A stretch of DNA of 63,958 nucleotides, counting the filler, from Babesia bigemina (taxonomy: Eukaryota): assembly GCF_000981445.1 (NCBI RefSeq). It is 8 parts of 8 records of this genome, joined end to end, with 100 filler letters (N's around TTAATTAATTAA, not from the genome) between each part and the next. Parts side by side here need not be neighbours in the genome. Positions count along the whole stretch, not along the records: positions 19,051 to 27,657 come from NW_012237249.1; positions 27,758 to 35,228 come from NW_012237250.1; positions 35,329 to 42,953 come from NW_012237251.1; 5 more parts are not named here. One strand, given 5' to 3'. The position numbers were made by a program, and so were the translations under genes. The notes under the pieces are model-generated. The model did no database searches, was not told the origin of the DNA, and was given only the letters and a program-made list of their open reading frames with translations. Numbering within the stretch: position 1 is the first letter of the stretch; each line of letters begins with the position of its first letter. Below are positions 7,591-42,299 of this stretch, piece by piece.

Positions 7591-7635
7591 GTTGATACTG
7601 ACCATTCTCTTACTGACGCTGCTACTAAGAAAGCC

Positions 7636-18950: not shown

Positions 18951-19050
18951 NNNNNNNNNNNNNNNNNNNNNNNNNNNNNNNNNNNNNNNNNNNNTTAATT
19001 AATTAANNNNNNNNNNNNNNNNNNNNNNNNNNNNNNNNNNNNNNNNNNNN
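18951..19050. other. Assembly linker
   Basis: N-TTAATTAATTAA-N. Confidence 0.98.
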
Positions 19051-19283
19051 CTCTTCTAGTAGCATCGTCAGTAATGGAATGGTCAGTATCAGCAAGTTAT
19101 TATAAGGATTTATGGAGGTCATAGCGTTAATAAGACGAAGTAATTCGAGAGATTTGGAGTTAGGGTGAACATGATGGGACATGGCAGTGGCAAGAGGTGG
19201 AAGAGGGAAGTGAAGGGTGACAAGGCACAAGTTATTGTGATGGTTTATAAAGGTCATAGCGGTAATATGGCGAGGTAATTCGA
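19051..19283 (-). promoter_or_regulatory. Class B leader of a further cassette whose ORF is lost in the gap
   Basis: Close match to 17603-17835. Confidence 0.7.
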
Positions 19284-19560
19284 GCGATGTAGAGTGGGTA
19301 AGGGGCGATGTAGAGTGGGTAAGGGGCGATGTAGAGTGGGTAAAGGGGCGATGTAGAGTGGGTTAGGGAGCGATGTGGAGTGGATAAAGGGGCGATGTAG
19401 AGTGGGTTAGGGAGCGATTACAGGAGGTGAAGGAGCGATGTAGAGTGGGTTAAGGGGCGATGTAGAGTGGATAAAGGGGCGATGTGGAGTGGGTTAAGGG
19501 CGATGTGGAGTGGATAAAGGAGCGATGTGGAGTGGGTTAAGGGGCGATGTGCAGTGGATT
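19283..19560 (-). repeat. ~22-bp satellite
   Basis: Direct reading. Confidence 0.95.
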
Positions 19561-19583
19561 ATAATCACCACTTAAGTCACCAC

Positions 19584-19664
19584 TGTCATCGCTGCCGTAA
19601 CCATGTCATCGCTGCCGTGACCATGTCACCGCTGCCGTGACCATGTCATCGCTGCCGTAACCAT
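19584..19664 (-). repeat. 20-bp satellite
   Basis: Direct reading. Confidence 0.93.
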
Positions 19665-19667
19665 CAA

Positions 19668-19873
19668 CTTGGTCATGGCATTGGTCACCACTTTGGTCAT
19701 GGCATTGGACAACACATTGGTCAACACTTTTGTCATGGCATTGGTCAGCACTTTGGTCAGCACCTTGGTCAGCACTTTGGTCAGCACATTGGTCAGCACC
19801 TTGGTCAGCACCTTGGTCAGCACGTTGGTCAGCACATTGGTCAGCACTTTGGTCAGCACATTGGTCACCACTT
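19668..19873 (-). repeat. 12-bp satellite
   Basis: Direct reading. Confidence 0.95.
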
Positions 19874-19996
19874 TAGTTAACTATTACACAATCACATACA
19901 ACGGTTAATGAGTGATACAACAGATTAAACAACAATGCATAAGTTAGGTGAGTAGGTGAGGCTAGGTGAGTGTAGACAGTAAACACGTGAGTACGA
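19874..19996 (-). promoter_or_regulatory. Conserved 3' element
   Basis: Homologous to 6803-6925. Confidence 0.65.
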
Positions 19997-22900
19997 TTAC
20001 GGCTGCAGGTAAAACACTCTGTTAAGCTTGTTAACACGTCCAGCAGCAAGTAGTGATTGAGCAGCGATGCGATGCGATGATGGTGAGTGCAAGTGAGATT
20101 TGATGTGGAGCAGGTCGAGGCGGATGACCATGATGTGGATGAGGTACAACAGAGAGAGGAGCCAGAGGGCTACGTTGAGCCAGATGAAGGGGGCGCGGAT
20201 GGTGAAAAGGAAGTCGTCGCATTTATCGAATAGGTCGCTGAAATATTTGGAATTTAGCAACTTATTTAACTGACCGCAGAAATCGGAACACTTCTTTTTA
20301 TATTCATCATTATTCAATTTGTCAGCTTTACCAAAACTGAATCCATATCGGTACAGCGTCGGTGACACGCCCTTACAACTTACTATTGATGAACACTGGC
20401 AACGTGGGTTCCCGCTTTTTTCGTCAGTAAGACCATGCCATCCTTTCTTGCACGTATCGCCTCTCAAGCAGCCGCGGCAACCCCAATCGGCACAGAATAT
20501 GTTGCAGAAGTCATTGTACAAATCGTTCAGCAATCGCCAGAAATCCCATGAGAGGTATATGGCCCACGATAGGTACAGGCTGCAGTTGTTGATGGACATG
20601 TATTCATATGAATCTGCGCATAGCGATTGTAGATAGGGAGCGCAGGTCACATCTGCAACATCGTAACGACATATTTCCGAGGTAGTGAAATTGACAAGGT
20701 GCGGATGCTTGCAATCTTCATGCAAAACAGCCTGTGAACCGTACGCTTTCATCAATGTTTTGGTTAGTTCATAGGAATCGGGATATAACTTAAGGGAGAC
20801 ATCACGTACGCGTGATTCAAATGACGACTGGAAACTGTATTTACTTTTCATATTCTGGGACAACTTAGAGATATTCGACCATCCCTTAACCAGCGACAAC
20901 GCAAAACCGAAATGTTCTGGTAACGTCTTGGGAGGCTTGGGCTGAAGACAGCACAAGTATTTGACATAATCATTATTTAGGAAAGTTTTGAGCACGGAGC
21001 ATAGGAACTTGCCCGTTTTGGTGGATCCAGTGAAGGCACGGAAACCGAAGGGCGTAAGGCATGGCTTACCACTGTTACTAGGAGAGCACGTCCTACATTG
21101 AGCTTTGCAGCCAACGGATTCCAATATATGCGGTAGGTGGCCCGGTAGGCAATCGTTTAGCAAGGACATTAGGGGAGAAGTTGGTTGGCAATTTGGTTTG
21201 GTGTTAACTTGGCACGCAGCCTGGCACGTTGGTTGAGTGTTTGGTTGGCACGTTACTTCGTCCGTCAATCTGTTGACGCAGTGCGATTTGGTAGTCGGAA
21301 TTTCTCTCCCGTAGTGACACTCACTCCAACCGTGGTGTTCAGCAGCTACACTGCAACGGTTGGATAAATATCTGAACTGCAAGAACAATCGGCGGAGTAT
21401 GTCTAGCAACATGTCTAAGCATTGCGCGGGATCTGCTGGATACGACAGACCATCAGGGTTGATACGAAACTCGCACGCATAGCGGCCTTCGGCGTTACCG
21501 TTACCTAGGATGGCAACGAGGATATCATGTGAGTTTCCGCAAATGGGTAGCAGTTTCGCGTCAAGTGCCCGTGCTGTAATGTCTGCCTCTGTCTGAACAT
21601 CCAATGTCAAATTCGCGGATCCAATTTCTTTGTGTGTTTTATGTTCCTCCCCCTTCGGTTTAGGGAACAATTCCATGACGTAATACCTAAGTGGATCGCG
21701 CATAGGATGATGCCATAAACCGCATACCCAGTGAAGCATTTGATAGATGTTACGCGGTGCTTTGGGTTTCGAATGAATCTGATAGTGACAGACGCTGTAG
21801 TACGTGCCAAGGTGACCGGTAAGACATCGAAGGATGTCCAACAAATTGAACTTATTTGATTTTTTATTAGGTTTGCACGTTGTAAGATGCCCTTTATCGG
21901 CGCCGGTAATTACCGTTAGTAGTAATGCATATATTGCCGAACCTTTCTTTGTCCTGTCCAGCTCCCCGTTTTGAGTACGCTCATCGTCTGACACCCTGAA
22001 GCCACGTTCGTGCAGCCAGTTACCCAAGGGGTTTTTTGTTTTGTTACCCTCTTTAATTACGTCATTTAAAAATATTTTTTTATCGTGGGAATCACCGCCT
22101 TTGACGCATCCTTGTAATAATTTTAACAAATCATAGAAAAGTATCTCGAGTATGCTGAAAAATATTTTTGCGCCATTTCGGCCATCAGCCGTTAATTCGT
22201 CTTCTCCAGTCTCTTTATGTGTCCATCTTTTAATAGTACTTCCCCCCTCATACCCGTTCACATACACCCTCCCCAGCTCCTTGACAAACCCCTCCAGCCC
22301 CTGTTTGACCGCATCGAGCAGCTCCGGGTGCCGGGGGTTGGCGAAGGCGGAGGGGGTGAGAGCGGTGAGGGAGGAGGAGAGGGTGGAGAGGAGGGAGGTG
22401 AATTTATTATCATAGAGGTATTTTCTATCATCAGGGACATTTTTAAGATGGTTAAGAAGGTCATCCAATTTTTGTTGAACTTTGGCAAGATTGTCGGCAT
22501 AATGATGTGGATCCCTGTCGCCGACTTGAACTGGTGGATTTCTTTGTAGCATGATTTCTTTATGTTCTCTTTTGATTTCTTGGACAATGTATTCGTTGAT
22601 TGGCTTCCAAAATGAGTTGAAATTTTCAGACAACTTTTTGAACGCCTCTTTCTTCTGCTCACCGGTGCCAGATGGCAAATTTGCAAGTTCGCTAAGTTTC
22701 TTAATATTTTCTTTCCCAGTAATTTTAGCTGACGTACTACCATCCTCCAACGTCTTCATCAACCCCTTGAACCCGATCGTCAAATCCCTGTCAATCTCCG
22801 CCGGCAACTCCCGCAACTCCTGGCCGACCTTGTCCGCGAACGCGGTGAGGAGCGCCTTGACGGAGGAGACGTAGTTGCGGCGGGCGGCGGTGGTGAGGGT

Positions 22901-25414
22901 GGAGGAGGCGTTCGCTGTCTGAGTGTTGACGAATTGTTTAAGTTTTTCAATGGTGGAATCGCGGATTTTGTGGGCGTCCGTGTCAATGAAATCTTGCGTC
23001 GCCTGGATCACTTTTGCCAATGAAGAGCTTTGCAAAATTCCGATACACCTTCTGATAGAGTTTAGTTGCTTATCAATTTTTGTATGCTTCAGGTAATACA
23101 AATGCCTATTAAGCTCTTCACCGACTTTTGATATATCACTCATTAAGTCCTTCAGGCTCTGCCCTATATTGGTCATTAACGCTTTCAACTCACCTCTGTC
23201 TTCCGTTGCACTGCTGGAAGATGCCTTCTTCACGTATATATTCAGGACATGGTTATTAAACGCATCTGTTATATGTTTATCAACCTCAGCTATGGCATCG
23301 TCGAGATTCTGTCTCCTGCTCTTACTGTTTCCCAGTGCTCCTCCCGGTTTGAAGGACGTAGTGAGCTTTTTGAGCTCTACATGTTGGTCCCTACCACGTG
23401 TTCCTTTTAGCTGCGGCAACTCATTCTCCAGCACGTCTGCAATGTCTATATAGAAATTGTACTGGTCAAGGGTGCTCTTCGAACCTGATTTATGTGTGAT
23501 TGCAGGATCGATGGATGACCGAAGAGCGGTTTGCAGGTTATCAAATAGCACACCCGCTACTTTTGACGCAATGTCCACTTTGCCAATGTTAGCATGAAAG
23601 TCTTCCTCGCCGGTAAGCCATTCCAGTTGATCTGCAACTTTGTTGGCCACACTAACGATCAGGTTTAGTGTATATTTAACGGCTGATGACAGTATAACGT
23701 CAGCTTTGTCCACAGGTGGACCTTTCAAGTCTATTTCGACTTCCTTGGCTATTTCTCCAATGTTTATTCCCCCATTCTGACCCCTCAATTTTTGACCGAG
23801 TAGCAGGGCAAATTGGTTGCAACCTATCATAACTGCGCCAATATGTCTTTGAATACTTCCGGTTTCATAATCACTGTCATCATTTAAGGCGTCCTCAACA
23901 GCTTTACCGGCTTCGGGAATAATGCCCACCCTAACTTTTTCCGTAATTTTGCTTGCAATGGTTTTTATACATGTTTCATTAAATGTATCTGTTCCAGCTG
24001 ACAATTTGCTTTCCAGTTGTGACCTATTTTGACCGCTATTGACATATTTCTTAAGTAAGCCTACAACAATTTCACTCTCATCTAAAATTTCTTCTATCCA
24101 CTCCTTCACTCTCTCCTCATATTTTATGCCGGTGTATGTTCTGGCCCATGCCTTCACTTCTGTCTCGATTCGTGTCAGACCGTCCTTATCAGTAATCTTT
24201 TTAACCTGTGCTTCCACCTTCTGAGCGTATCCCCTAACATAATTCCCAATCTCAGTCTGAATTTGTCTTTTTATCTCAAACAAATCGACCTGTACAGCAG
24301 TTTCCAGTTCCGTCACTTTCTGTTTAACTTCCTCAACCAATTTTGTTACATTATCTTTTGTGCTCTCGAAAATCCAATACAGCTGTTCACCCTTTTTCGC
24401 TAATTCCTCTACCTTATGTTTAATAGCATCCTGATTAACATAGCCCACGCCTCTTTTTACAATTGGTTCGACATACTTCTTTGTCACACCTTCAATGAAA
24501 CTTTCAGTGTTATTTATCCACATTCCCAACTCGTTAACGTAGCTTCCTAGCTTATCATATACACCGTTAAGCTGGTGTAGAATCTCTGCGACCAATGATC
24601 TCAACGAATCGACAAGCTCGTTCACTTTTGCATCAATTTGTTCGTTCACATCTTTTCCAAGCCATTCAAGCACACTTCTAATTTTTGCTGTCATCTCCTT
24701 GAAGTCCTTCTTCGCCTTGTCCGACACTTCAGTCAGACGCACAGTCTCATGCAAAACATTGCGCCCAGCGTTTTTTACTTTATCACGCAATATGGAATTC
24801 ATGTCATTAATTTTAGTTTCTACTGTATTAAAAGCTATATTAAATATTGAAGCGTGCTTAAGACACTGCTCTAACACTTCCTTGATAGCATCATCAGCTT
24901 GCTTGATCTGTTCCTCAGTGAATGTCTCCTTACCTGAAGCAGCATTATCTTTTAATATATTACTTACCTTAGTTTTAAACTTGTCATCTACCTGTCCTAG
25001 AAGAGTGTCAATCGGCTTTTTAACTGCATTATTACTTCTCTCAACACTCTCATTATACTCCCGCACCTTCCTCGCCACCTGCGCAATGACCTTAAAACCC
25101 TCACGCCCGGTGGATAATTTAGTTTTAAGGTCAGTAACAAGTTTTTTTAGTTCCTCTTTACCCACACTGTAAGGCTGTTTCTCGCTGACATCCTTAAGCA
25201 CCTGATACAAAAATCCCATCACTGCATCACACAGCCTGTCCAGGTCAGAGTACACAATACCCTGGCCGTCGTAGCCTTTGGAAGCAGAGTTGAAGCCGAG
25301 GAAGGTTTCAAGGCCGGTGCAGAGGTTATTAAGGATGTTAGTAGGGTTGTTATTTGAGGTAATTTTAAGGTTTAAAATTTTACCAAATTTCTTGTCAAGC
25401 TCCCTAGGCGGCAC
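19997..25414 (-). CDS. ves1: ves1-like cassette; leader ATG (25497) out of frame by a 1-nt deletion
   Basis: 1805 open codons with family motifs, TM helix and tail. Confidence 0.85.
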   Translation of the reverse strand: MPPRELDKKFGKILNLKITSNNNPTNILNNLCTGLETFLGFNSASKGYDGQGIVYSDLDRLCDAVMGFLYQVLKDVSEKQPYSVGKEELKKLVTDLKTKLSTGREGFKVIAQVARKVREYNESVERSNNAVKKPIDTLLGQVDDKFKTKVSNILKDNAASGKETFTEEQIKQADDAIKEVLEQCLKHASIFNIAFNTVETKINDMNSILRDKVKNAGRNVLHETVRLTEVSDKAKKDFKEMTAKIRSVLEWLGKDVNEQIDAKVNELVDSLRSLVAEILHQLNGVYDKLGSYVNELGMWINNTESFIEGVTKKYVEPIVKRGVGYVNQDAIKHKVEELAKKGEQLYWIFESTKDNVTKLVEEVKQKVTELETAVQVDLFEIKRQIQTEIGNYVRGYAQKVEAQVKKITDKDGLTRIETEVKAWARTYTGIKYEERVKEWIEEILDESEIVVGLLKKYVNSGQNRSQLESKLSAGTDTFNETCIKTIASKITEKVRVGIIPEAGKAVEDALNDDSDYETGSIQRHIGAVMIGCNQFALLLGQKLRGQNGGINIGEIAKEVEIDLKGPPVDKADVILSSAVKYTLNLIVSVANKVADQLEWLTGEEDFHANIGKVDIASKVAGVLFDNLQTALRSSIDPAITHKSGSKSTLDQYNFYIDIADVLENELPQLKGTRGRDQHVELKKLTTSFKPGGALGNSKSRRQNLDDAIAEVDKHITDAFNNHVLNIYVKKASSSSATEDRGELKALMTNIGQSLKDLMSDISKVGEELNRHLYYLKHTKIDKQLNSIRRCIGILQSSSLAKVIQATQDFIDTDAHKIRDSTIEKLKQFVNTQTANASSTLTTAARRNYVSSVKALLTAFADKVGQELRELPAEIDRDLTIGFKGLMKTLEDGSTSAKITGKENIKKLSELANLPSGTGEQKKEAFKKLSENFNSFWKPINEYIVQEIKREHKEIMLQRNPPVQVGDRDPHHYADNLAKVQQKLDDLLNHLKNVPDDRKYLYDNKFTSLLSTLSSSLTALTPSAFANPRHPELLDAVKQGLEGFVKELGRVYVNGYEGGSTIKRWTHKETGEDELTADGRNGAKIFFSILEILFYDLLKLLQGCVKGGDSHDKKIFLNDVIKEGNKTKNPLGNWLHERGFRVSDDERTQNGELDRTKKGSAIYALLLTVITGADKGHLTTCKPNKKSNKFNLLDILRCLTGHLGTYYSVCHYQIHSKPKAPRNIYQMLHWVCGLWHHPMRDPLRYYVMELFPKPKGEEHKTHKEIGSANLTLDVQTEADITARALDAKLLPICGNSHDILVAILGNGNAEGRYACEFRINPDGLSYPADPAQCLDMLLDILRRLFLQFRYLSNRCSVAAEHHGWSECHYGREIPTTKSHCVNRLTDEVTCQPNTQPTCQAACQVNTKPNCQPTSPLMSLLNDCLPGHLPHILESVGCKAQCRTCSPSNSGKPCLTPFGFRAFTGSTKTGKFLCSVLKTFLNNDYVKYLCCLQPKPPKTLPEHFGFALSLVKGWSNISKLSQNMKSKYSFQSSFESRVRDVSLKLYPDSYELTKTLMKAYGSQAVLHEDCKHPHLVNFTTSEICRYDVADVTCAPYLQSLCADSYEYMSINNCSLYLSWAIYLSWDFWRLLNDLYNDFCNIFCADWGCRGCLRGDTCKKGWHGLTDEKSGNPRCQCSSIVSCKGVSPTLYRYGFSFGKADKLNNDEYKKKCSDFCGQLNKLLNSKYFSDLFDKCDDFLFTIRAPFIWLNVALWLLSLLYLIHIMVIRLDLLHIKSHLHSPSSHRIAAQSLLAAGRVNKLNRVFYLQP

Positions 25415-25525
25415 ATGGTCAGGGCAGTGGCAAGAGGTGGAAGAGGGAAGAGAAGGGTGACAAGGGACAAGTTATTGTTATGGTTTATAGAGGTCATAGC
25501 GGTAATATGGCGAGGTAATTCGAAG
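25415..25525 (-). promoter_or_regulatory. Cassette leader (class C)
   Basis: Homologous to 29115-29228 and 36610-36723. Confidence 0.6.
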
Positions 25526-26043
25526 GATGTAGAGTGGATTAGGGAGCGATGTAGAGTGGGTAAAGGAGCGATGTAGAGTGGGTAAAGGGGCGATGCAGAG
25601 TGGATAAGGAGCGATGTAAGGTGGATAAAGGAGCGATGTAGAGTGGGTTAAGGAGCGATGTGGAGTGGGTTAAGGGGCGATGTAAGGTGGGTTAGGGAGC
25701 GATGTAGAGTGGATAAAGGGGCGATGTGGAGTGGGTAAAGGGGCGATGTGGAGTGGGTTAGGGAGCGATGAAGAGTGGATAAAGGGGCGATGTAGAGTGG
25801 GTTAGGGAGCGATGAAGAGTGGATAAAGGGGCGATGTGGAGTGGGTAAAGGGGCGATGTGGAGTGGGTTAGGGAGCGATGAAGAGTGGATAAAGGGGCGA
25901 TGTGGAGTGGGTTAAGGGGCGATGTAGAGTGGATAAAGGAGCGATGTAGAGTGGATAAAGGGGCGATGTAGAGTGGATAAAGGGGCGATGTAGAGTGGGT
26001 AAAGGGGCGATGTAGAGTGGGTTAGGGAGCGATGTAGAGTGGA
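25526..26043 (-). repeat. ~22-bp satellite
   Basis: Direct reading. Confidence 0.96.
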
Positions 26044-26067
26044 TGATAATCACCACTTAAGTCACTA

Positions 26068-26205
26068 CTGTCATCGCTGCCGAGACCATGTCATCGCTGC
26101 CGTAACCATGTCATCGCTGCCGTGACCATGTCATCGCTGCCGTGACCATGTCATCGCTGCCGTGACCATGTCATCGCTGCCGTGACCATGTCACCGCTGC
26201 CGTGA
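26068..26205 (-). repeat. 20-bp satellite
   Basis: Direct reading. Confidence 0.94.
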
Positions 26206-26211
26206 ACTCAA

Positions 26212-26801
26212 CTTGGTCAGCACTTTGGTCAGCACATTGGTCAGCACTTTGGTCATGTCCTTGGTCAGCACATTGGTCAACACTTTGGGCACCACTCTGG
26301 TCATGGCATTGGTCAGCACTTTGGTCATGTCCTTGGTCAACACGTTGGTCAGCACTTTGGTCAGCACTTTGGTCAGCACATTGGTCTTGGCATTGGTCAC
26401 CACCTTGGTCACCACTTTGGTCAGCACATTGGTCAACACGTTGGTCAGCACATTGGTCACCACTTTGGTTATGACATTGGTCAGCACTTTGGTCATGGCA
26501 TTGGTCACCACTTTGGGCAGCATCTTGGTCAACACGTTGGTCGTGGCATTGTTCATGGCATTGGTCAGCACTTTGGTCAGCACTTTGGTCAGCACATTGG
26601 TCAGCACCTTGGTCAGCACCTTGGTCACCACTTTGGTCACCACGTTGGTCATGGCATTGGTCAGCACCTTGGTCATGGCATTGGTCAGCACGTTGGTCAG
26701 CACATTGGTCACCACTTTGGTCAACACCTTGGTCAGCACGTTGGTCATGGCTTTGGTCAACACGTTGGTCAGCACTTTGGTCAGCACATTGGTCACCACT
26801 T
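26212..26801 (-). repeat. 12-bp satellite
   Basis: Direct reading. Confidence 0.96.
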
Positions 26802-26924
26802 TAGTTAACTATTACACAATCACATACAACGGTTAATGAGTGATACAACAGATTAAACAACAATGCATAAGTTAGGTGAGTAGGTGAGGCTAGGTGAGTG
26901 TAGACAGTAAACACGTGAGTACGA
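26802..26924 (-). promoter_or_regulatory. Conserved 3' element
   Basis: Reads identical to 19874-19996. Confidence 0.65.
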
Positions 26925-27656
26925 TTACGGCTGCAGGTAAAACACTCTGTTAAGCTTGTTAACACGTCCAGCAGCAAGTAGTGATTGAGCAGCAATCCTA
27001 TGACTCGAGGGACTATGTAGATGCGATTTGATGTGGAGGAGGTCTAGGCGGATGACCATGATGTGGATGAGGTACAGGAAAGAGAGGAGCCAGAGGGTAA
27101 GGACAAGGTAGGAGAAGGGTTGTCTGATAGTCCAAATGAAGTTGTCACATTCCTCAAATAATTTGGTGAAATATTGCGATTTTAGTACGTTTTGTAATTG
27201 CGCGTACAGGTTACGGCAGTATCTTCTTTGATCACCGGATAACAATTTTTTGACGTCGCCAAATGTGAAGCCGTAACTGTATAAAATGCTCATCACACCG
27301 CGGCATCCCACCAGCGATCGGCACTTGCAGCCGTAGCCATCGCCGTGCTTGCCCGGTTTACAAGAGCTGCCGTCGACGCATGTGCTGCATCCCCAATCTT
27401 GGCAAGAGATACTGCTGAATGAATCAAACAATGATTTAAGATAGTCATACAGTGTCCATGGTAGATAAACGGCCCATGAGAGATACACGTTAGTATGTTT
27501 AGCTGCGATGTAGTAGTACGTGTCGCAGAATAGGGTCTGCAGGTACGGCCCGCAGTGGACGTTATCTTCGATTGCAAGCATACATGACTGACTCATCGCG
27601 AGGCTCGACATATCAGCCGATTTTGGAATATGATTACTTGCATTATGACTACTCTG
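26925..27656 (-). CDS. ves1: 3' part of a ves1-like gene; 5' end lost in gap
   Basis: Frame open to the gap; YLSWAVYLPW, CQDWGC, TM helix, RVFYLQP. Confidence 0.85.
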   Translation of the reverse strand, partial: QSSHNASNHIPKSADMSSLAMSQSCMLAIEDNVHCGPYLQTLFCDTYYYIAAKHTNVYLSWAVYLPWTLYDYLKSLFDSFSSISCQDWGCSTCVDGSSCKPGKHGDGYGCKCRSLVGCRGVMSILYSYGFTFGDVKKLLSGDQRRYCRNLYAQLQNVLKSQYFTKLFEECDNFIWTIRQPFSYLVLTLWLLSFLYLIHIMVIRLDLLHIKSHLHSPSSHRIAAQSLLAAGRVNKLNRVFYLQP

Positions 27657-27657
27657 A

Positions 27658-27757
27658 NNNNNNNNNNNNNNNNNNNNNNNNNNNNNNNNNNNNNNNNNNN
27701 NTTAATTAATTAANNNNNNNNNNNNNNNNNNNNNNNNNNNNNNNNNNNNNNNNNNNN
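27658..27757. other. Assembly linker
   Basis: N-TTAATTAATTAA-N. Confidence 0.98.
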
Positions 27758-29116
27758 TACATCGCTCCTTTATCCACTCTACATCGCTCCTTTATCCACT
27801 CCACATCGCTCCCTAACCCACTCTACATCGCCCCTTAACCCACTCTACATCGCCCCTTAACCCACTCCACACCGCCCCTTAACCCACTCTACATCGCTCC
27901 CTAACCCACTCCACATCGCTCCTTATCCACCTTACATCGCCCCTTTATCCACTCTACATCGCTCCTTAACCCACTCTACATCGCCCCTTTAACCACTCCA
28001 CATCGCCCCTTAACCCACTCTACATCGCTCCTTTATCCACTCTACACCGCTCCCTAACCCACTCTACATCGCTTTTAACCCACTCTTCATCGCTCCCTAA
28101 CCCACTCCACATCGCTCCTTATCCACTCTACATCGCTCCTTAGTCCACTCCACATCGCCCCTTTACCCACTCCACATCGCTCCTTGATCCACTCTACATC
28201 GCTCCCTAACCCACCTTACATCGCTCCCTAACCCACTCTACATCGCCCCTTATCCACTCTACATCGCTCCCTAACCCACTCTACATCGCTCCCTAACCCA
28301 CTCTACATCGCCCCTTAACCCACTCTACATCGCTCCCTAACCCACTCTACATCGCCCCTTATCCACTCCACATCGCTGCCTAACCCACTCTACATCGCTC
28401 CCTAACCCACTCCACATCGCCCCTTAACCCACTCTACATCGCTCCTTTATCCACTCTACATCGCTCCTTAACCCACTCTACATCGCCCCTTAACCCACTC
28501 TACATCGCCCCTTTATCCACTCTACATCGCTCCTTAACCCACTCTACATCGCCCCTTATCCACTCCACATCGCCCCTTTCTCCACTCTACATCGCCCCTT
28601 TCTCCACTCTACATCGCCCCTTAACCCACTCTACATCGCCCCTTTGTCCACTCTACATCGCCCCTTTACCCACTCTACATCGCCCCTTATCCACTCTACA
28701 TCGCTCCCTAACCCACTCTACATCGCTCCCTAACCCACTCCACATCGCCCCTTAACCCACTCTACATCGCTCCCTATGCCACTCTACATCGCTCCTTAAC
28801 CCACTCTACATCGCCCCTTATCCACTCTACATCGCCCCTTATCCACTCTACATCGCCCCTTACCCACCCTACATCGCCCCTTCATCCACTCCACATCGCT
28901 CCCTAATCCACCTTACATCGCTCCTTAACCCACTCTACATCGCTCTTCTATCCACTCTACATCGCCCCTTTACCCACTCCTCATCGCCCCTTAACCCACT
29001 CCACATCGCTCCCTAACCCACTCCACATCGCTCCCTAACCCACTCTACATCGCCCCTTTATCCACTCTACATCGCTCCCTACTCCACTCCACACCGCCCC
29101 TAACCCACTCTACATC
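27758..29116 (+). repeat. ~22-bp satellite
   Basis: Direct reading. Confidence 0.97.
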
Positions 29117-29144
29117 CCTCGAATTACCTTGCCATAATACCGCT

Positions 29145-29270
29145 ATGACCTCTTTAAACCATCCTAATAACCTCTGCCTTGTCACCCTTCACTTACCTTC
29201 TTCCACCTCCTGCCACTGCCCTGACCATGTGCCGCTCAGGGAGCTTGGCAAGAAATTTGACAAAATTTAA
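29145..29270 (+). other. Class C leader ORF in frame with ves but ended by TAA 29268-29270 (MTSLNHPNNLCLVTLHLPSSTSCHCPDHVPLRELGKKFDKI*)
   Basis: Manual translation; 29388-29145 = 243 nt, in frame. Confidence 0.8.
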
Positions 29271-29387
29271 AACCCTAAAATTACCTTAAATAATGACCCT
29301 GCTAACATCCTTAATAACCTTTGTACTGGCCTCGAGAAATTCCTCGGCTTCAACTCTGCTACCAAAGGCTACGATGGCCAGGGGATT

Positions 29388-32300
29388 GTGTACTCTGACT
29401 TGGATAGGCTGTGTGATGCAGTGATGGGATTTTTGCATGGTGTGCTTGAAGCGGTGAAAGAAGATGATGCAGTTAAAACGTACGATAAATACATGGATAG
29501 AAAGCTTAATACAGTACTAGAAGAGGTAAATAAAAATATTGGCTCCGGGCGTAATGGGCTTGCGGCGTCTGTCGGCGCGGTGAGGGGGTGGTTGGAGGGG
29601 TATGAAGGTGTTCTTACCACCAATACTAAGAACCTTAGAAATGCGTATATAACACTAAGAGATTTTAATTTTTTAAAAATTAGCGATGCACTTAGTTCAC
29701 TTAAAAAACTTAGAGGCGATGACATTGCCAAGGTAGCCGACATCATAGATAGGTGTATTACTGAGGCCGGTAACTTGTCGAAAGACTTTACGCTGGCGAA
29801 GGTAGCGTATACTAAGCTTGATACGTCACTTAGAAATAGACTACGTGACACTGCCCGCCGTTTGGAAGTAGAGGTGGCGCGGTTTGTAGCAGCGGCGAGT
29901 AACAGTGAGTTGAAAGCTGTTGTACATTTGACCGGAAGGGAACTGGAGGTTCTACAAAGTACGGTGAACAGTCACGCGAAGGGGTGTTTGCACATAATGG
30001 AGAGTAAGATGAACGAAGAATTCAACGAGAAGATTACGCAAAAAATTGCAGGAATTAATGATGAACTAAAACAACATATTATCATGTTGGACAGGTGGAT
30101 CGCGGCGGCGCAAAATGTTGTCGAGCAGGCAATAAAGAAGTGTGATGAGATACTTGGCAAAATTAAAGAAAACGATGAGAATACATTGCAGACGACAGAA
30201 ATAGGAAAAGCCGTCGAAAAGTTAAAAGGCGAGGCAATAAAGCTTTTGAGTTCTGCGACTGAGGCTAAGAGAAGTGTTCAGAGTTTGGTGCCTGCGGCAC
30301 TAAAGAAGGTGGAAGAAATGGACACGGCGGTTGAGTATGGTTTGTTTCAGATAAAAGAACAGCTGATGACAGGATTGTATAAATACGTTAGTGCTTATGT
30401 TGCTGAAGTACAAAGGCAAGTCGGATTAATTAAGGGTAAGAGAGGAGGAGATGATGGAAAAGGTATCGAAGGGATAAAAAAAAAGGTGCAAGGTTATATG
30501 AATCAATATAAAACCTTCGAAAGCCTGGTGCAACATTGGATCAACGATATTCTTACCGATAATGGCATAGTTAAAGAATCGCTCGGGACGTACGTTAGTA
30601 AAAGTGGTCAACATAGATTCAATCCCGATGATATAACTAATAGAAATGGATTTCATTTGACGAATTCCAATAAGGTAGCAGCTGCAATCAAGGAGCAGTT
30701 GACGCTGCTTGGTATAGAAATGGGGAACGCGGGAATTGAGGATGACGGCGAAGACAATATTCAGAACAATATTATGGCTGTACACAATTGTGTCACTGGA
30801 TTCGTAATGCATCTTAACGCTAAACTCGATAAGGGAAAACCGCTGTCTGGTGATAGAGACAGATTTGTTGAGTCCATAGCCACAGCTATTGAGAAAGCTG
30901 TGGTAGTAGGAGGCGATGGTGCGGCTTTCCGAAGCCATCTCAAGCCCGTCGTTACTAACGTACTTGCTGCTTTGTACACGAAAACCAACCAGATTCTAAC
31001 CGAACTAGAATCATTAGTTGGCGTCGAACACGAAGTAAAAATAGGAGATAATTTGGACGATGCGCTGGGAGTGTCAAACAATTTGGTTGAAGGTTTTACT
31101 GAGGCGATAAAAAACCCTTCCGAAACCTCCTCCGCCACATTCTTCAACCCTTATGATGCTGGGTCTACGATTAAACTCAAAGACAATATCTTAAAAACGA
31201 TCAGTGAGGCACTGATAAAGCAGATTGGGAAGGAGAATAATCATGGTAGAGTAAATCTTGAAGGCGTTTCAAACTTCGCTCTGTACCGTACAAGCGTCAC
31301 TGTGCCCACGGACGGTAAGCTGACAGGTATTAAAGATAAGAAAGAAGGAACACTACCGGAAGCTATTGGAGATATTAAGACTGAGGTGGAAAAAGCATTG
31401 CAAAATGTTCAACCACATCCTAGTGTAGGAGCGATTCGGGAAGTTAAGGATGCAACGTTTACAGATCAGTACAACATTGTAAAAAGAGAACTGCAAGACC
31501 TGACCAAATTAGTTGATGAAAAGAACGACAGTTTAATCAGTGGTGAAAATGGGAAAATTGGCGTAAAAACACTATTGAGAGATATAAAGCGGGGGCTAGG
31601 GAACAAGAGGGTATGGTACTTTTTTCCGAAGGGCCTCACTGAAATAAAGGAGCGTATCCATCACCTTCAAAATACCGCTCTTACAGAGCTACTTACAAAC
31701 GCCGATAATTTTTATAATGATGTCATGCAGAAGCTAACTGGTGAAGCAATAGACTCCATCAAGGCATTCGTCAACAAGGAGATACACCGATCAACCACAA
31801 CTATGCGAGAAAAGGCGCAACATCATTACCACAACAAAATAAGTAGTCTGTTCCATGAGACTAAGTCAAGAGTCACGAAGTATATTATTGAAATGGAAAC
31901 AATGATTGACAAGGATTTGCAAAGCGGCGTTAAGGGCTTGATGAGGAAATTAAGGATGCACCTAGAAAACGATATTCAAACCAAAGTCATTTCTGGCAAT
32001 AAAATAAGTGACGTGTATAAAAACATCGCTGCTTTTTCCACTAAGCTTCATCCGTTACTCTCCGCCCTCCTCACCTACACCAATGCCGACCTTAAGAAAA
32101 TCGACCCAAATTTCACCAAACTCGCCAAATTCGCCAAACCCCTCGAAATGCCATTTGCCATCCTTGCTGATGTCGCCCACTTCAGTTCTGCCTTTGCCAA
32201 TACCCTCTCCACCCTCTCCTCTCTCTCCTCCGCCCTCGACCCCCAAGCGCTGCCGGACGCAGGACGGCCCGTGCTCAAGGCGCTGAAGCAGGGGATGCTG

Positions 32301-34544
32301 GGATTCGTGGAGGAGTTGGGGAAGGGGTATGTGAGTAGGTATTCGATGGAAACGTTCAAAGAGGGGTTGACTGATAAGAAAGACACATTAACCGATTACG
32401 GCCGGAAGTGCGCGAAGGTATGTCTCAGCATAGTGCCCATCGTGACCAACTCACTAAGTGAGCTCAAAGAGAACCTTGACGACGAAGACGGGAAGTGGAA
32501 GAAATATAAGATATATAATTCAGATAAATCCCACCATAGCCTCCATCGGCTATTCTTCCGTGACAACGGTTATGATATTGACTTGCCTGTGGAAGCGAAA
32601 CACGGCGAGCTGAATCATAAAGATACGATACTAGGTGAAATAATTCTCAACAAATTGAACGATCCTACGTATAAATTGTTCGCTACTAGTAAGCAACCGC
32701 TTGGCGATCAAGAGCTCACGGTAGACTTGGTCAACGAACACGGTATCCTTGAAGATCTGTTCGATTGCCTTAAGAAATACTTCGCAGTCTGCCACCTCGG
32801 CGCTCCCTCGAAGAAACACCCGTGCTCCGTTAACGAGATGCTGTGCTGGCTGACTGGTCTCCCGCACAATGGTGTTTATGAGAAGCTGAAGGGGTACATT
32901 CACAGCGTATTTATGGTGCCGAAAAAAGACAATCCATCCGAAAAAATATATATGCCTATTGATGCCTCTCCGTCTCCCATCACTGAACCCAGTATGGTAG
33001 AAGTTATCGGACAGGTCTGCGCCAAGTCATACGCCCTGCTGACCACCTTCGTCGGCACCGGTGACGAGGCAACGTACTACGCGTGCGAGTTCCCTAACAA
33101 CTCCCTCGGTTTGCAGTATCCATCAAACCCTGCCGACTGCCTCGACACGCTGCTCGACATCCTCCGTCGTATTTTCCCGCCGCTAAAATTCCTGTTCATG
33201 CAGTGCGGTCAACCAGCGTCTGAAAATGGTTGGTTGAAGTGCGTGTACGGTAAGAGTGTAGCGTCATCCAAGTGGCCGTGCAAGGAGCACTCAAAGGGCA
33301 AAGCTAGGTGCGAAGCAAAGTGTCAACCAACGTGCGGACCAACGTGCCAACCAAATTGCCGGCCAACGTCTCCACTTCAGTCCTACCTATCCGACTCTCT
33401 CACCGGCCATTTGCCACATGCTTTGACATCCATCGGCTGCAGAGCTGAGTGTAATACATGTCCTAAGGGTAAGCCAGGAATGCCCTGTATCACTCCGCTC
33501 GGGTTCCGTGGCTTCTCCGGGTCGACCAAGACAGGCTCCTACCTGTCCTCCGTCATCGGGGAATTCTTAGATATTGCAAATATTCATACCCTGTTTGGCC
33601 TATCACCTACAACACCAAAAACGCTGCCGGAACACTTTGACTTCGTTTCGTGTCTTGTGCGTGGGTGGCATAATGACAAAAAGTATCATAAAGTTGGCGT
33701 TCAGAAGGCTTTCGAAGACTCAGCCGGCAGCTTGTCTATCAAGCTGTATAATCAGCCTCACGAACTCACTGACGCACTGCGTAATGCCTATAGTGAGCCG
33801 CGGCCTGCTCAACTCAATCAGGTGCGTATGCCTCCACACGCTGCGTTGTCGAGTCTGTGGCTGATAACTCCTAATGATCTCAGCCTGAAAGCATATTGCG
33901 CTCCGTATATGTCACCTCTATGCGGGAATGCCTACGGGTGCCTGCCATTTAAGCACTCTAATACGTACCTCTCCTGGGCCATCTACCTCCCGTGGACATT
34001 CTGGGACCTGCTCAACAATCTCTACAATTCCTTCTGCTCCATCAACTGCCAAGACTGGGGATGCCGTGGATGTCTTCGTGGAGATAAGTGCAAGATGGGA
34101 GCGCATGGTTCTATCCATGAGACTACCAAGAAATCCAATTGTCAGTGCTCTTCCATCGTCGACTGCAAGGGCGTCGCACCAACGCTCTACCAGTATGGTT
34201 TCGTCTTTGGTGAAGCGTCGACGTTGAATGACAAGCAATCGCCGAAGAAGTGTTCAGATTTCTGCAGTCAGTTGAAGAATGTTTTAAAATCGAAATATTT
34301 CGAAAAATTGTTTGAAGAATGTGACAACTTCCTCTGGACAATACGTACACCTTTCTCCTACCTTGTTCTTTCACTCTGGCTCCTCTCCTTGTTGTACCTC
34401 CTCCACATCATGGTCATCCGCCTCGACCTGCTCCACATCAAATCTCACTTACACTCACCATCATCACATCGCATCGCCGCGCAATCACTACTTGCTGCTG
34501 GACGTGTTAACAAGCTTAACAGAGTGTTTTACCTTCAACCATAA
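29388..34544 (+). CDS. ves1: ves1-like cassette (frame open from 29271; premature TAA upstream)
   Basis: 1718 open codons with family motifs, TM helix and tail. Confidence 0.85.
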   Translation: MYSDLDRLCDAVMGFLHGVLEAVKEDDAVKTYDKYMDRKLNTVLEEVNKNIGSGRNGLAASVGAVRGWLEGYEGVLTTNTKNLRNAYITLRDFNFLKISDALSSLKKLRGDDIAKVADIIDRCITEAGNLSKDFTLAKVAYTKLDTSLRNRLRDTARRLEVEVARFVAAASNSELKAVVHLTGRELEVLQSTVNSHAKGCLHIMESKMNEEFNEKITQKIAGINDELKQHIIMLDRWIAAAQNVVEQAIKKCDEILGKIKENDENTLQTTEIGKAVEKLKGEAIKLLSSATEAKRSVQSLVPAALKKVEEMDTAVEYGLFQIKEQLMTGLYKYVSAYVAEVQRQVGLIKGKRGGDDGKGIEGIKKKVQGYMNQYKTFESLVQHWINDILTDNGIVKESLGTYVSKSGQHRFNPDDITNRNGFHLTNSNKVAAAIKEQLTLLGIEMGNAGIEDDGEDNIQNNIMAVHNCVTGFVMHLNAKLDKGKPLSGDRDRFVESIATAIEKAVVVGGDGAAFRSHLKPVVTNVLAALYTKTNQILTELESLVGVEHEVKIGDNLDDALGVSNNLVEGFTEAIKNPSETSSATFFNPYDAGSTIKLKDNILKTISEALIKQIGKENNHGRVNLEGVSNFALYRTSVTVPTDGKLTGIKDKKEGTLPEAIGDIKTEVEKALQNVQPHPSVGAIREVKDATFTDQYNIVKRELQDLTKLVDEKNDSLISGENGKIGVKTLLRDIKRGLGNKRVWYFFPKGLTEIKERIHHLQNTALTELLTNADNFYNDVMQKLTGEAIDSIKAFVNKEIHRSTTTMREKAQHHYHNKISSLFHETKSRVTKYIIEMETMIDKDLQSGVKGLMRKLRMHLENDIQTKVISGNKISDVYKNIAAFSTKLHPLLSALLTYTNADLKKIDPNFTKLAKFAKPLEMPFAILADVAHFSSAFANTLSTLSSLSSALDPQALPDAGRPVLKALKQGMLGFVEELGKGYVSRYSMETFKEGLTDKKDTLTDYGRKCAKVCLSIVPIVTNSLSELKENLDDEDGKWKKYKIYNSDKSHHSLHRLFFRDNGYDIDLPVEAKHGELNHKDTILGEIILNKLNDPTYKLFATSKQPLGDQELTVDLVNEHGILEDLFDCLKKYFAVCHLGAPSKKHPCSVNEMLCWLTGLPHNGVYEKLKGYIHSVFMVPKKDNPSEKIYMPIDASPSPITEPSMVEVIGQVCAKSYALLTTFVGTGDEATYYACEFPNNSLGLQYPSNPADCLDTLLDILRRIFPPLKFLFMQCGQPASENGWLKCVYGKSVASSKWPCKEHSKGKARCEAKCQPTCGPTCQPNCRPTSPLQSYLSDSLTGHLPHALTSIGCRAECNTCPKGKPGMPCITPLGFRGFSGSTKTGSYLSSVIGEFLDIANIHTLFGLSPTTPKTLPEHFDFVSCLVRGWHNDKKYHKVGVQKAFEDSAGSLSIKLYNQPHELTDALRNAYSEPRPAQLNQVRMPPHAALSSLWLITPNDLSLKAYCAPYMSPLCGNAYGCLPFKHSNTYLSWAIYLPWTFWDLLNNLYNSFCSINCQDWGCRGCLRGDKCKMGAHGSIHETTKKSNCQCSSIVDCKGVAPTLYQYGFVFGEASTLNDKQSPKKCSDFCSQLKNVLKSKYFEKLFEECDNFLWTIRTPFSYLVLSLWLLSLLYLLHIMVIRLDLLHIKSHLHSPSSHRIAAQSLLAAGRVNKLNRVFYLQP

Positions 34545-34667
34545 TCGTACTCACGTGTCTACTATCTACACTCACCTAGCATATCACCTACTCACCTAAC
34601 TTATGAATTGTGCTTTAATCTGTTGTATCACTCATTAATCGTTGTATGTGATTGTGTAATAGTTAAC
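34545..34667 (+). promoter_or_regulatory. Conserved 3' element
   Basis: Homologous to 6803-6925. Confidence 0.65.
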
Positions 34668-34888
34668 TAAAGTGTTGACCAAGATGCTGACCAAAGTGTT
34701 GACCTATGTGCTGCCCAAAGTGTTGACCAACGTGCTGCCCAAAGTGGTGACCAATGCCATGACCAACGTGCTGACCAATGCCACGACCAACGTGCTGACC
34801 AACGTGGTGACCAACGTGCTGACCAACGTGGTGACCAATGTGCTGACCAATGCCATGACCAACGTGGTGACCAATGTGCTGACCAAGT
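34668..34888 (+). repeat. 12-bp satellite
   Basis: Direct reading. Confidence 0.95.
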
Positions 34889-34891
34889 TGA

Positions 34892-35228
34892 TGTTACGGC
34901 AGCGATGACATGGTTACGGTAGCGGTGACATGGACACGGCAGCGATGACATGGTTACGGCAGCGATGACAAGGTTGCGGCAGCGATGACTGGTTACGGCA
35001 GCGACGACATGGTTACGGCAGCGATGACATGGTTACGGCAGCGATGACATGGTTACGGTAGCGATGACATGGTTACGGCAGCGATGACATGGTTACGGCA
35101 GCGATGACATGGACACGGCAGCGATGACATGGGCACGGCAGCGATGACATGGGCACGGCAGCGATGAGATGGTCACGGCAGCGATGAGATGGTCACGGCA
35201 GCGATGACATGGTTACGGCAGCGATGAC
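34892..35228 (+). repeat. 20-bp satellite running into gap
   Basis: Direct reading. Confidence 0.95.
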
Positions 35229-35328
35229 NNNNNNNNNNNNNNNNNNNNNNNNNNNNNNNNNNNNNNNNNNNNTTAATTAATTAANNNNNNNNNNNNNNNN
35301 NNNNNNNNNNNNNNNNNNNNNNNNNNNN
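35229..35328. other. Assembly linker
   Basis: N-TTAATTAATTAA-N. Confidence 0.98.
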
Positions 35329-35535
35329 TGGTCACGGCAGCGATGACATGGTCACGGCAGCGATGACATGGTTACGGCAGCGATGACATGGTTACGGCAG
35401 CGATGACATGGTCACGGCAGCGATGACATGGTTACGGCAGCGATGACATGGTTACGGCAGCGATGACATGGTCACGGCAGCGATGACATGGTCACGGCAG
35501 CGATGACATGGTTACGGCAGCGGTGACATGGTTAC
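35329..35535 (+). repeat. 20-bp satellite
   Basis: Direct reading. Confidence 0.95.
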
Positions 35536-35549
35536 AAGTGGTGATTATT

Positions 35550-36611
35550 ATCCACTCTACATCGCCCCTTATCCACTCTACATCGCCCCTTTATCCACTC
35601 TACATCGCTCCCTAACCCACTCTACATCGCCCCTTATCCACTCTACATCGCTCCTTTGTCCACTCTACATCGCTCCCTAACCCACTCTACATCGCTCCCT
35701 AACCCACTCTACATCGCTCCCTAACCCACTCTACATCGCCCCTTAACCCACTCCACATCGCTCCCTAATCCACTCTACATCGCCCCTTAACCCACTCCAC
35801 ATCGCCCCTTATCCACTCTACATCGCTCTCTAACCCACTCTACATCGCCCCTTAACCCACTCTACATCGCTCCTTTATCCACTCTACATCGCCCCTTTAC
35901 CCACTCCACATCGCCCCTTAACCTCCTTTAATCGCTCCTTTATCCACTCTACATCGCCCCTTAACCCACTCTACATCGCTCCTTTACCCACTCTACATCG
36001 CCCCTTAACCTCCTCTAATCGCTCCTCTATCCACTCCACATCGCCCCTTTATCCACTCCACATCGCTCCCTAACCCACTCTACATCGCTCCCTAATCCAC
36101 TCTACATCGCCCCTTAACCCACTCTACATCGCCCCTTTACCCACCTTACATCGCTCCCTAACCCACCCTACATCGCCCCTTTATCCACTCTACATCGCTC
36201 GTTATCCACTCCACATCGCCCCTTAACCCACTCTACATCGCTCCTTATCCACTCTACATCGCTCCCTAACCCACTCTACATCGCTCCTTTATCCACCCTA
36301 CATCGCTCCCTAACCCACTCTACATCGCTCCCTTATCCACTCTACATCGCTCCTCTACCTCCTCTAATCGCTCCTTAACCCACTCCTCATCGCTCCCTAA
36401 CCCACTCTACATCGCCCCTTTATCCACTCTACATCGCCCCTTTATCCACTCTACATCGCTCCCTAACCCACCCTACATCGCTCCCTAACCCACTCTACAT
36501 TGCCCCTTAACCCACTCTACATCGCCCCTTAACCCACTCTACATCGCTCCCTTTATCCACTCTACATCGCTCTTTTATCCACTCTGCATCGCCCCTTATC
36601 CACTCCACATC
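35550..36611 (+). repeat. ~22-bp satellite
   Basis: Direct reading. Confidence 0.97.
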
Positions 36612-36639
36612 CCTCTAATTACCTCGCCATAATACCGCT

Positions 36640-36765
36640 ATGACCTCTTTAAACCATCCTAATAACTTGTGTCTTGTCACCCTTCACTTCCCCTCTTCCA
36701 CCTCTTGCCACTGCCCTGACCATGTGCCGCCTTGGGAGCTTGACAAGAAATTTGACAAAATTTAA
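36640..36765 (+). other. Class C leader ORF in frame with ves but ended by TAA 36763-36765
   Basis: Manual translation MTSLNHPNNLCLVTLHFPSSTSCHCPDHVPPWELDKKFDKI*; 36883-36640 = 243 nt. Confidence 0.8.
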
Positions 36766-36882
36766 AACCTTAAAAATACCTCAAATAACAACCCTACTAT
36801 CATCCTTAATAACCTTTGTGACGGCCTCGAAACCTTCCTCGGCTTCAATCCATCTTCCAAAGGCTACAATGGCCAGGGGATT

Positions 36883-41925: not shown

Positions 41926-41928
41926 TGA

Positions 41929-42277: not shown

Positions 42278-42299
42278 TGGTGACCAAAGTGATGATGAT

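What the first reader, a model, noticed from the sequence alone, without database searches (positions are those of the whole stretch)
25360..36765. Complementary 5' lesions lock three class C cassettes
At 29145 and 36640 the leader ATG is in frame with the ves ORF (MTSLNHPNNLCLVTLH.PSSTSCHCPDHVP..EL.KKFDKI), but both carry the same TAA at codon 42 (29268, 36763). The third copy (ATG 25497, minus strand) has TTA there, but is 1 nt short in the pyrimidine tract (ATG-to-GTG 83 nt vs 84). One short exchange or a 1-nt slip would give an intact gene. The same tract also differs by 1 nt among class B leaders (7426 and ~50095 vs 17809 and 19257). Lesions are confined to the first ~130 nt while 4.7-5.4 kb downstream stay open. 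Inference: silent donors or an ON/OFF phase switch.
Basis: partly seen in the sequence, partly recalled or inferred. Interest (0 to 1): 0.8.

Follow-up and report, generated by a model that had tools for sequence, protein, structure and literature searches.

The report
Silent Babesia antigen cassettes, no lock
These are three copies, broken at their front ends, of a repeat-flanked surface-antigen gene family in the cattle parasite Babesia bigemina; many sister gene models are unbroken, so the breaks are no special lock, and the copies likely serve as silent sequence donors for antigenic variation.

Summary
The lesions are real: TAA at 29268 and 36763, and a 1-nt shorter tract in the 25497 copy. 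The "complementary lock" or phase switch is not supported. The three copies lie on separate contigs joined by artificial linkers. 23 of 95 fetched B. bigemina gene models are open from the same MTSxNH start at the same spacing. The tract has no run longer than 4 nt, and any two lesions at different sites are "complementary".

What is unusual is the architecture. Each ves1b-type cassette follows one layout: 20-bp array, 22-bp array, shared leader, 5'-truncated open body, 125-nt trailer, 12-bp array. In 0 of 8 window cassettes with a body does the leader ATG open into it, yet 36,000 nt of body carry no stop. 5' ends are swapped between bodies.

Best reading (0.55): a silent donor archive whose leader is not held in frame. 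It would feed canonical-start genes such as 53477-59500, one of two that share 30-31% of residues with cassettes (2-12% in 22 others). Main rival (0.27): class C is an expressible subfamily and these three are decayed copies. No RNA data were available. Seven literature searches found no description of this layout.

The parts
27758..29120 (+). 22-bp tandem array (about 62 copies) upstream of class C cassette 29145; runs to the contig end
   Evidence: contig bounds
29121..29270 (+). Shared leader plus class C segment of cassette 29145; leader ATG at 29145, stop at codon 42 (29268-29270)
29271..34544 (+). Open ves1b-type body, 1757 codons; first in-frame Met is in the conserved D-x-V-M-G-F-L block; ends in the conserved hydrophobic C-terminus
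34545..34669 (+). Conserved ~125-nt non-coding trailer (92% mean identity among 6 cassettes)
34672..35228 (+). 12-bp array, then 20-bp array (start of the next unit)
35229..35328 (.). Artificial contig linker separating cassettes 29145 and 36640
35329..36615 (+). 20-bp array and 22-bp array upstream of cassette 36640
36616..36765 (+). Shared leader plus class C segment of cassette 36640; leader ATG at 36640, stop at codon 42 (36763-36765)
36766..41475 (+). Open body, 1569 codons; shares a 34-residue exact tract with canonical-start protein P0083
27658..27757 (.). Artificial contig linker separating cassettes 25497 and 29145
25526..26802 (-). 12-bp, 20-bp and 22-bp arrays upstream of cassette 25497, in the same order as in the other units
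25372..25521 (-). Leader and class C segment of cassette 25497; leader ATG at 25497 is out of frame with the body (tract 1 nt shorter)
19997..25471 (-). Open body frame, 1824 codons
53477..59500 (+). Full-length ves1b-type gene with canonical N-terminus and 2.4 kb of unique, repeat-free upstream DNA; heads a repeat array; candidate recipient (expression) locus, inferred

Best explanation
The three class C copies are front-broken members of a family of repeat-flanked, 5'-truncated ves1b-type cassettes of Babesia bigemina that likely act as silent donors, with a shared leader that is likely a recombination boundary rather than a selected start. Shown: the unit layout; 5' truncation at different depths in classes A, B and C; open bodies; leaders out of frame or stopped in all 8 window cassettes with a body; 5' ends swapped between bodies; many sister class C models open from the same ATG. 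Inferred: bodies stay open because segments are copied by gene conversion into genes with the canonical N-terminus and their own upstream region (best candidates: the two MRHVP-start genes, one at 53477). The leader lies upstream of the homology used, so stops and 1-nt indels in it are tolerated and spread by 5' exchange. The TAA and the short tract are shared alleles of that drifting leader, not a programmed switch.
For: Layout repeats across the 8 contigs, some units cut by contig ends. 0 of 8 cassettes with a body are open from a leader ATG, against 36,000 nt of body without a stop. The same leader is fused to bodies at different depths, in different frames, and is tandemly duplicated in class B. 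None of 14 hits to the class A 5' part starts at the leader ATG. The non-coding 3' trailer is as conserved as the leader (92% in 6 cassettes vs 91% in 7), so conservation needs no coding role. The first ~350 nt of the three copies are 80-95% identical per 60-nt window while whole bodies are about 32-47% identical in protein to their best hits. P0007 and P0124 share 1115 of 1128 residues but have different 5' parts. MRHVP-start proteins have 0.30 and 0.31 of residues in 12-mers shared with cassettes, against 0.02-0.12 for the other 22 of 24 canonical-start proteins. P0083 is a patchwork of tracts from several cassettes, including 34 residues identical to cassette 36640; a 19-mer of that tract is in 1 of 122 fetched proteins. 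Segmental gene conversion from silent ves donors is established in B. bovis, mean tract 109 bp (PMC7485966; PMC6630957).
Against: 23 class C models keep the ATG, frame and exact spacing, against 3 broken copies seen in DNA and 4 models that suggest a broken leader (P0017, P0029, P0031, P0110). That is up to 77% open, above the rough neutral range I computed for realistic divergence (0.28-0.71 at 4-6% per lineage), although the protein search favours open copies. The codon test did not separate the leader from variable coding DNA: 5 of 16 changes were synonymous in leader codons 1-15 (neutral 0.22, p=0.27; Fisher vs conserved blocks p=0.12), and 7/31, 10/40 and 4/29 in variable body parts. Cassettes share tracts with each other as much as with the MRHVP genes (median 0.22, up to 0.63), so direction of transfer is not shown. 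Peptides were assigned to an open class C model (BBBOND_0212310 = P0004; 6 peptides, 1 used for quantitation). Four of 7 short hits are not flagged partial, so body lesions may exist elsewhere in the family.
Confidence: 0.55

Rival explanations
1. Class C is a true short-N-terminus ves1b subfamily translated from the leader ATG and activated in situ. The three window copies are decayed members, and routine 5' exchange could turn such a copy on or off without any dedicated switch.
For: 23 open models with invariant spacing; 16 of residues 1-51 invariant in the first 15 models; peptides assigned to one open model; 5' swaps exist; in situ switching occurs in B. bovis.
Against: It does not explain why classes A and B carry the same leader out of frame (0 of 5 open), nor why 3 of 3 class C lesions fall in 126 nt while 15 kb of body is clean. 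No unique promoter-like DNA lies between units. The peptide table gives no peptide sequences and comes from a strain other than its reference.
Confidence: 0.27
2. The cassettes are expressed in place. The leader ATG heads an upstream ORF or a short exon, and translation starts (or splicing rejoins) further down, for example at the conserved Met of D-x-V-M-G-F-L.
For: That Met is the first in-frame Met in 8 of 8 cassettes. A GT at leader offset 36 and a nearby AG would give a 28-29 nt in-frame intron in both class A copies. Several ab initio models use such introns.
Against: No single donor/acceptor pair works across classes. For the TAA copies the nearest in-frame AG needs 108-234 nt introns that remove the conserved L-C-x-G-L block, and 1 of 10 leaders has no usable GT. 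The donor 6-mers lack the usual +5 G (consensus recalled, not from a call). The block upstream of the Met is under purifying selection (32 of 67 changes synonymous, p=3e-6), so it is translated somewhere.
Confidence: 0.1
3. Programmed ON/OFF phase switch: slippage in the pyrimidine tract, or exchange between these particular complementary copies, toggles expression.
For: Two tract-length alleles exist in classes B and C.
Against: The longest run is 3-4 nt. The short allele has the same core in 3 copies of 2 classes, as expected of inheritance or conversion. In class B both tract lengths are closed. The copies are on different contigs, and many open models exist.
Confidence: 0.04
4. The TAA and the 1-nt difference are assembly errors in collapsed repeats.
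For: Unplaced contigs end in repeat arrays; no reads of the source could be laid.
Against: The same alleles are in 2 and 3 separate contigs, the TAA is a substitution outside any long run, and 36 kb of body show no such errors.
Confidence: 0.04

Closest known systems
Babesia bigemina ves1b / ves1ba (Jackson et al. 2014, PMC4066756)
   Same: Same family by sequence: all named hits are B. bigemina or B. ovata proteins; conserved blocks and C-terminus are shared with BBBOND_0303890, which the supplement names BbigVes1b. Frequent recombination and non-orthology between strains are reported there.
   Different: In the parts I read, the paper counts 80 ves1b and does not describe 5'-truncated cassettes, the shared leader and trailer, the 12/20/22-bp arrays or a recipient locus. 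It says analogous flanking motifs 'may exist'. Figures were not seen.
Babesia bovis ves1 LAT with segmental gene conversion
   Same: Silent paralogs donate short tracts to a transcribed gene; shared tracts here (20-73 residues) are of similar scale to the 109-bp mean.
   Different: B. bovis donors are mostly whole genes, about half in divergent pairs around bidirectional promoters that can switch in situ. Here the donors lack the canonical N-terminus and lie mostly head-to-tail between repeat arrays.
Trypanosoma brucei VSG archive with 70-bp repeats (PMC4858185)
   Same: Tandem repeats upstream of silent antigen genes, which there promote conversion from the archive (abstract).
   Different: In T. 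brucei the repeats also lie in the expression site. Here the candidate recipient (53477) has no array or leader upstream, so 5' crossover would have to be inside coding homology. The arrays may serve cassette-to-cassette shuffling instead.
Pneumocystis msg-I with UCS and CRJE (PMC10622565)
   Same: Promoter-less, mostly open silent genes with conserved 5' and 3' flanks more alike than the genes; one expression locus supplies the start (passages).
   Different: The CRJE is in frame, coding, and present at the expression locus. The leader here is out of frame in most classes and absent upstream of the canonical-start gene.

Membership tests
BbigVes1b | Conserved VESA1 C-terminal domain with a hydrophobic membrane stretch | tested here: met
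   The C-terminal block is present and under purifying selection in 6 of 6 complete cassettes (29 of 48 changes synonymous). Exact tracts are shared with the named ves1b BBBOND_0303890. No transmembrane predictor was run.
BbigVes1b | Canonical N-terminus (M..KKLTDCPENLRE.IDWLIQ), as in 24 fetched B. bigemina proteins | tested here: not met
   Absent from all 8 leader cassettes; present in gene 53477. The cassettes are truncated members.
BbigVes1ba | ves1b body with a ves1a-type 3' end | not tested
   No ves1a sequences were fetched. Two C-terminal types occur among cassettes.
Pfam-defined VESA family | Hit to a Pfam VESA model | tested here: not met
   0 of 5 proteins hit a VESA model; one had two coiled-coil-type hits below their cut-offs.
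Silent donor archive with expression site (VSG / vls / msg type) | Donors lack their own functional start or promoter but keep an open body | tested here: inconclusive
   Met for 8 of 8 window cassettes. Not met at face value for 23 open class C models. Promoters are not testable here.
Silent donor archive with expression site (VSG / vls / msg type) | Conserved flanks or repeats bounding each donor | tested here: met
   Leader 91%, trailer 92%, arrays in fixed order.
Silent donor archive with expression site (VSG / vls / msg type) | A recipient locus that is a mosaic of donors | tested here: inconclusive
   MRHVP-start genes are in the cassette exchange pool and look like patchworks. Direction of transfer is not shown.
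Silent donor archive with expression site (VSG / vls / msg type) | Recipient transcribed, donors silent | not testable with these tools
   No RNA holder listed; no usable expression table found.
B. bovis LAT | Divergent ves1 pair around a bidirectional promoter | tested here: not met
   No ves gene lies divergent to 53477 within the 2.4 kb held; only ORFs of 40-111 codons. The contig ends beyond that.
Slipped-strand phase variation | Long homopolymer or short-unit repeat in the 5' coding region | tested here: not met
   Longest run 3-4 nt in 7 of 7 B/C leaders. The usual length threshold of about 7 or more is recalled, not from a call.
Complementary-lesion lock | No open allele exists unless broken copies recombine | tested here: not met
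   23 open class C models among 95 fetched B. bigemina proteins. These are ab initio models whose DNA I did not see, but the ungapped spacing equals the genomic spacing.

The most novel reading that the evidence does not exclude
B. bigemina runs a trypanosome-style antigen archive not described for Apicomplexa in the papers searched: dozens of promoter-less, 5'-truncated ves1b cassettes built as 20-bp array / 22-bp array / leader / body / trailer / 12-bp array, feeding one or a few full-length expression loci. The gene at 53477 (MRHVP start, unique upstream DNA, head of an array) is such a locus, and most annotated N-termini of these genes are artefacts of gene prediction.
Probability: 0.35. 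Interest if true: 0.8.

Novelty: new variant of a known kind. Interest (0 to 1): 0.5.

Why it matters
How B. bigemina varies its red-cell surface antigen is inferred mainly from B. bovis, and ves1b loci were often unassembled in strain comparisons (38-44% 'no assembly', PMC4066756 Table 2). If the cassette-plus-recipient reading holds, it names a candidate expression locus and conserved flanks, so switching becomes directly testable by RT-PCR and long-read RNA. It would also mean that many ves1b gene models have invented starts and introns.

Tried and rejected
No whole genome is held, so class C leaders could not be counted in DNA. The protein searches favour open copies: none of the three window copies was retrieved.

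Sequencing runs: no RNA holder listed. Two DNA runs with small word shares were laid on 29105-31000. They gave short contigs over the leader start and the conserved block, but depth of only 1.4-1.9 at 29233-29296, no joints, and 97 difference rows not shown. They say nothing on codon 42. A second laying gave no result, so read-level checking of the lesions stays open.

Codon-position test of the leader: inconclusive. HMM test for homology of leader residues 1-16 or 17-48 to canonical proteins: nothing significant (best independent E 0.05); residues 17-62 hit only through the conserved block. Intron rescue: no common donor/acceptor pair. Rfam on 25300-37000: 0 matches. Pfam: no VESA model hit.

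Expression tables: 0 hits for 6 locus tags in 6 supplements of PMC9806345; no ves1b data in the passages seen of PMC10975891 and PMC9531838. Earlier scan findings: none. No fold or complex prediction was run, as neither bears on the question.
Full report
1. Observation. The coordinates are right. Leader ATGs lie at 29145(+), 36640(+) and 25497(-). The first two are in frame with their bodies but stop at codon 42 (TAA at 29268 and 36763). The third is 1 nt shorter in the pyrimidine tract (ATG-to-GTG 83 vs 84 nt) and is out of frame. Class B leaders show the same two tract lengths. The bodies run 1757, 1569 and 1824 codons to the conserved C-terminus. If two independent lesions fell uniformly along a cassette, both would land in the first 126 nt with probability about 6e-4, so the 5' confinement is real.

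2. The copies are not neighbours. The window is 8 contigs joined by an artificial N44-TTAATTAATTAA-N44 linker. The three cassettes are on contigs 19051-27657, 27758-35228 and 35329-42953. Their order and orientation carry no information.

3. Identity. A search with the 5' part of the 25497 body gave 131 hits, 120 listed: 83 named B. bigemina or window-encoded and 37 B. ovata. The family is ves1b of Jackson et al. 2014 (PMC4066756). The fetched protein P0122 is BBBOND_0303890, which that paper's supplement names BbigVes1b, and it shares the conserved blocks and C-terminus with the cassettes. Pfam gave no VESA hit in 5 proteins. One fetched model matches the window in 16 of 16 sampled pieces, so the fetched set overlaps the window's own gene repertoire.

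4. No lock. Of 95 B. bigemina proteins fetched in all, 21 start MTSxNH-like and reach the conserved block at exactly the genomic spacing (19 distinct in the first 60 residues). Two more (P0130, P0131) do so on inspection, making 23. Residue 42 takes four different values among them. These are ab initio models (methods of PMC4066756) whose DNA I did not see, but the ungapped spacing needs no intron. Four other models start late or skip the segment, which suggests broken leaders. The search favours open copies and missed all three window copies, so 23 of 30 (77%) is an upper bound. The tract's longest run is 3-4 nt. Two lesions at different sites are always 'complementary', so the pattern needs no design.

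5. The architecture. Tandem arrays and blast of the leader show one unit repeated through the window: 20-bp array, 22-bp array, leader, body, ~125-nt trailer, 12-bp array. Nine cassettes carry the leader, and class B has it twice in tandem. The leader is fused to the ves1b body at different depths: class A near the canonical ESIDWLIQ, class B about 120 residues in, class C just before the conserved L-C-x-G-L...GIVYSDL block. In 0 of 8 cassettes with a body does a leader ATG open into it, one leader has ATT, and the first in-frame Met is always the one in D-x-V-M-(G/A)-F-L. The 8 bodies total 36,000 nt with no internal stop; 6 reach the conserved C-terminus and 2 run to a contig end. The non-coding trailer is as conserved as the leader (92% vs 91%). 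The 22-bp arrays are strongly strand-skewed, G-rich on the template strand (G4Hunter-type mean about 1.0, vs 0.02 in a body); no function is shown.

6. 5' ends move between bodies. The three class C copies are 80-95% identical per 60-nt window over the first ~350 nt and then fall to mostly 15-60%. The two TAA copies therefore share a stop on otherwise unrelated genes. P0007 (open from the leader ATG) and P0124 (annotated from the conserved Met) are identical in 1115 of 1128 residues, with all differences in the first ~55 aligned residues.

7. A candidate recipient. Gene 53477-59500 has the canonical N-terminus (MRHVPKKLTDCPENL...), no leader or array upstream, 2.4 kb of unique DNA, and repeat arrays downstream that would lead into a next cassette. 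It and a second MRHVP-start protein (P0083) have 0.30 and 0.31 of their residues covered by 12-mers shared with 66 non-canonical sequences; the other 22 canonical-start proteins have 0.02-0.12. P0083 reads as a patchwork of exact tracts from at least six cassettes, including 34 residues of the TAA-bearing cassette 36640 and 73 residues of P0049. Cassettes also share tracts with each other (median 0.22, range 0.08-0.63), so this shows membership of one exchange pool, not direction.

8. Evidence that does not fit or does not decide. The leader's synonymous share (5 of 16) does not differ from neutral (p=0.27), nor significantly from conserved coding blocks (Fisher p=0.12). Variable body parts look neutral too. 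A rough neutral estimate of staying open is 0.28-0.71 at 4-6% divergence per lineage (0.18-0.71 over all nine settings), below the 77% upper bound. The proteome table of PMC4066756 assigns peptides to an open class C model (BBBOND_0212310) and also to models without a canonical start (BBBOND_0313910, 0314010, 0212360). It lists no unplaced-contig genes and no peptide sequences, and comes from another strain than its reference, so it fits either reading. No RNA run was listed.

9. Mechanism. Most likely (0.55) the cassettes are silent donors: bodies are kept open by their use in gene conversion into canonical-start genes, and the leader is a shared boundary whose frame is free to drift. Steps shown: layout, truncation, lesion pattern, 5' swapping, shared tracts. 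Steps inferred: silence of cassettes, transcription of 53477, direction of transfer, any role of the arrays. Rivals: an expressible class C subfamily with decayed members (0.27), downstream start or splicing (0.10), programmed phase switch (0.04), assembly error (0.04).

10. Literature. Read: PMC4066756 abstract, passages, sections 8, 13, 23, 24, 26, supplement 2 whole, supplement 3 part 1 and searched rows; passages of PMC10463595, PMC5660447, PMC6630957, PMC9531838, PMC10975891, PMC7485966 and PMC10622565; abstract and outline of PMC4858185; supplement search only of PMC9806345. Searches turned up no description of the arrays, the leader or truncated ves1b cassettes. Figures and most subscription journals are not held, so this is not proof of absence. 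Borrelia vls is known to me from a search listing and recall only.

11. Verdict. The finding as titled is an ordinary consequence of decay and exchange in a large antigen family. The cassette architecture around it, with a candidate recipient gene, is a plausible new variant of the silent-archive design. Interest 0.5.

Noticed in passing
window 51009-61735: Full-length gene 53477-59500 with unique GA/GT-rich upstream DNA, a distinct 3' flank, a 24-bp repeat, a 75-bp array (60297-60990), then the 20-bp and 22-bp arrays; candidate expression or recipient locus.
   Followed up: partly
window 9562-9661, 18951-19050, 27658-27757, 35229-35328, 42954-43053, 50909-51008, 61736-61835: Seven artificial N44-TTAATTAATTAA-N44 linkers: the window is a concatenation of unplaced contigs, so any cross-linker synteny is an artefact.
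   Followed up: yes
window 7402-7587, 17652-17833, 19051-19281, 49935-50120: Class B leaders are tandem duplications (unit 135 or 136 nt) whose first half resembles the class C 5' end; class B may derive from a class C end plus a second leader.
   Followed up: partly
22-bp arrays, e.g. window 27758-29120: Strong C/G strand skew with CCCTAA/CCCTTTA-like words; 25-31% of 25-nt windows reach a G4Hunter-type score of 1.2 on the template strand. Resemblance to telomere repeats is recalled, not tested.
   Followed up: partly
window 52698-52841 (-) and 52842-53063 (-): Small ORFs (47 and 73 codons) divergent from gene 53477; may be exons of a divergent gene, or chance.
   Followed up: no
window 6803-9561: The unit between cassettes 1371 and 7426 has short arrays (about 4 copies of the 20-bp and 7 of the 22-bp repeat), so array length varies at least tenfold.
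   Followed up: no
fetched proteins P0021, P0049: A fourth junction class: leader ATG joined, apparently in frame, to the SPSPS low-complexity stretch; DNA not seen.
   Followed up: no
fetched B. ovata proteins P0015, P0117, P0118, P0048: Odd N-termini (one joined to ASIDWLIQ, one reading through a tandem repeat) hint that B. ovata has similar truncated, repeat-flanked cassettes.
   Followed up: no
window bodies vs gene 53477: Six complete cassettes end in one C-terminal type (HIKSHL.SP..IAAQ) and gene 53477 in another (HIRSHLRIP..ITAQ); both types occur among fetched cassettes.
   Followed up: partly
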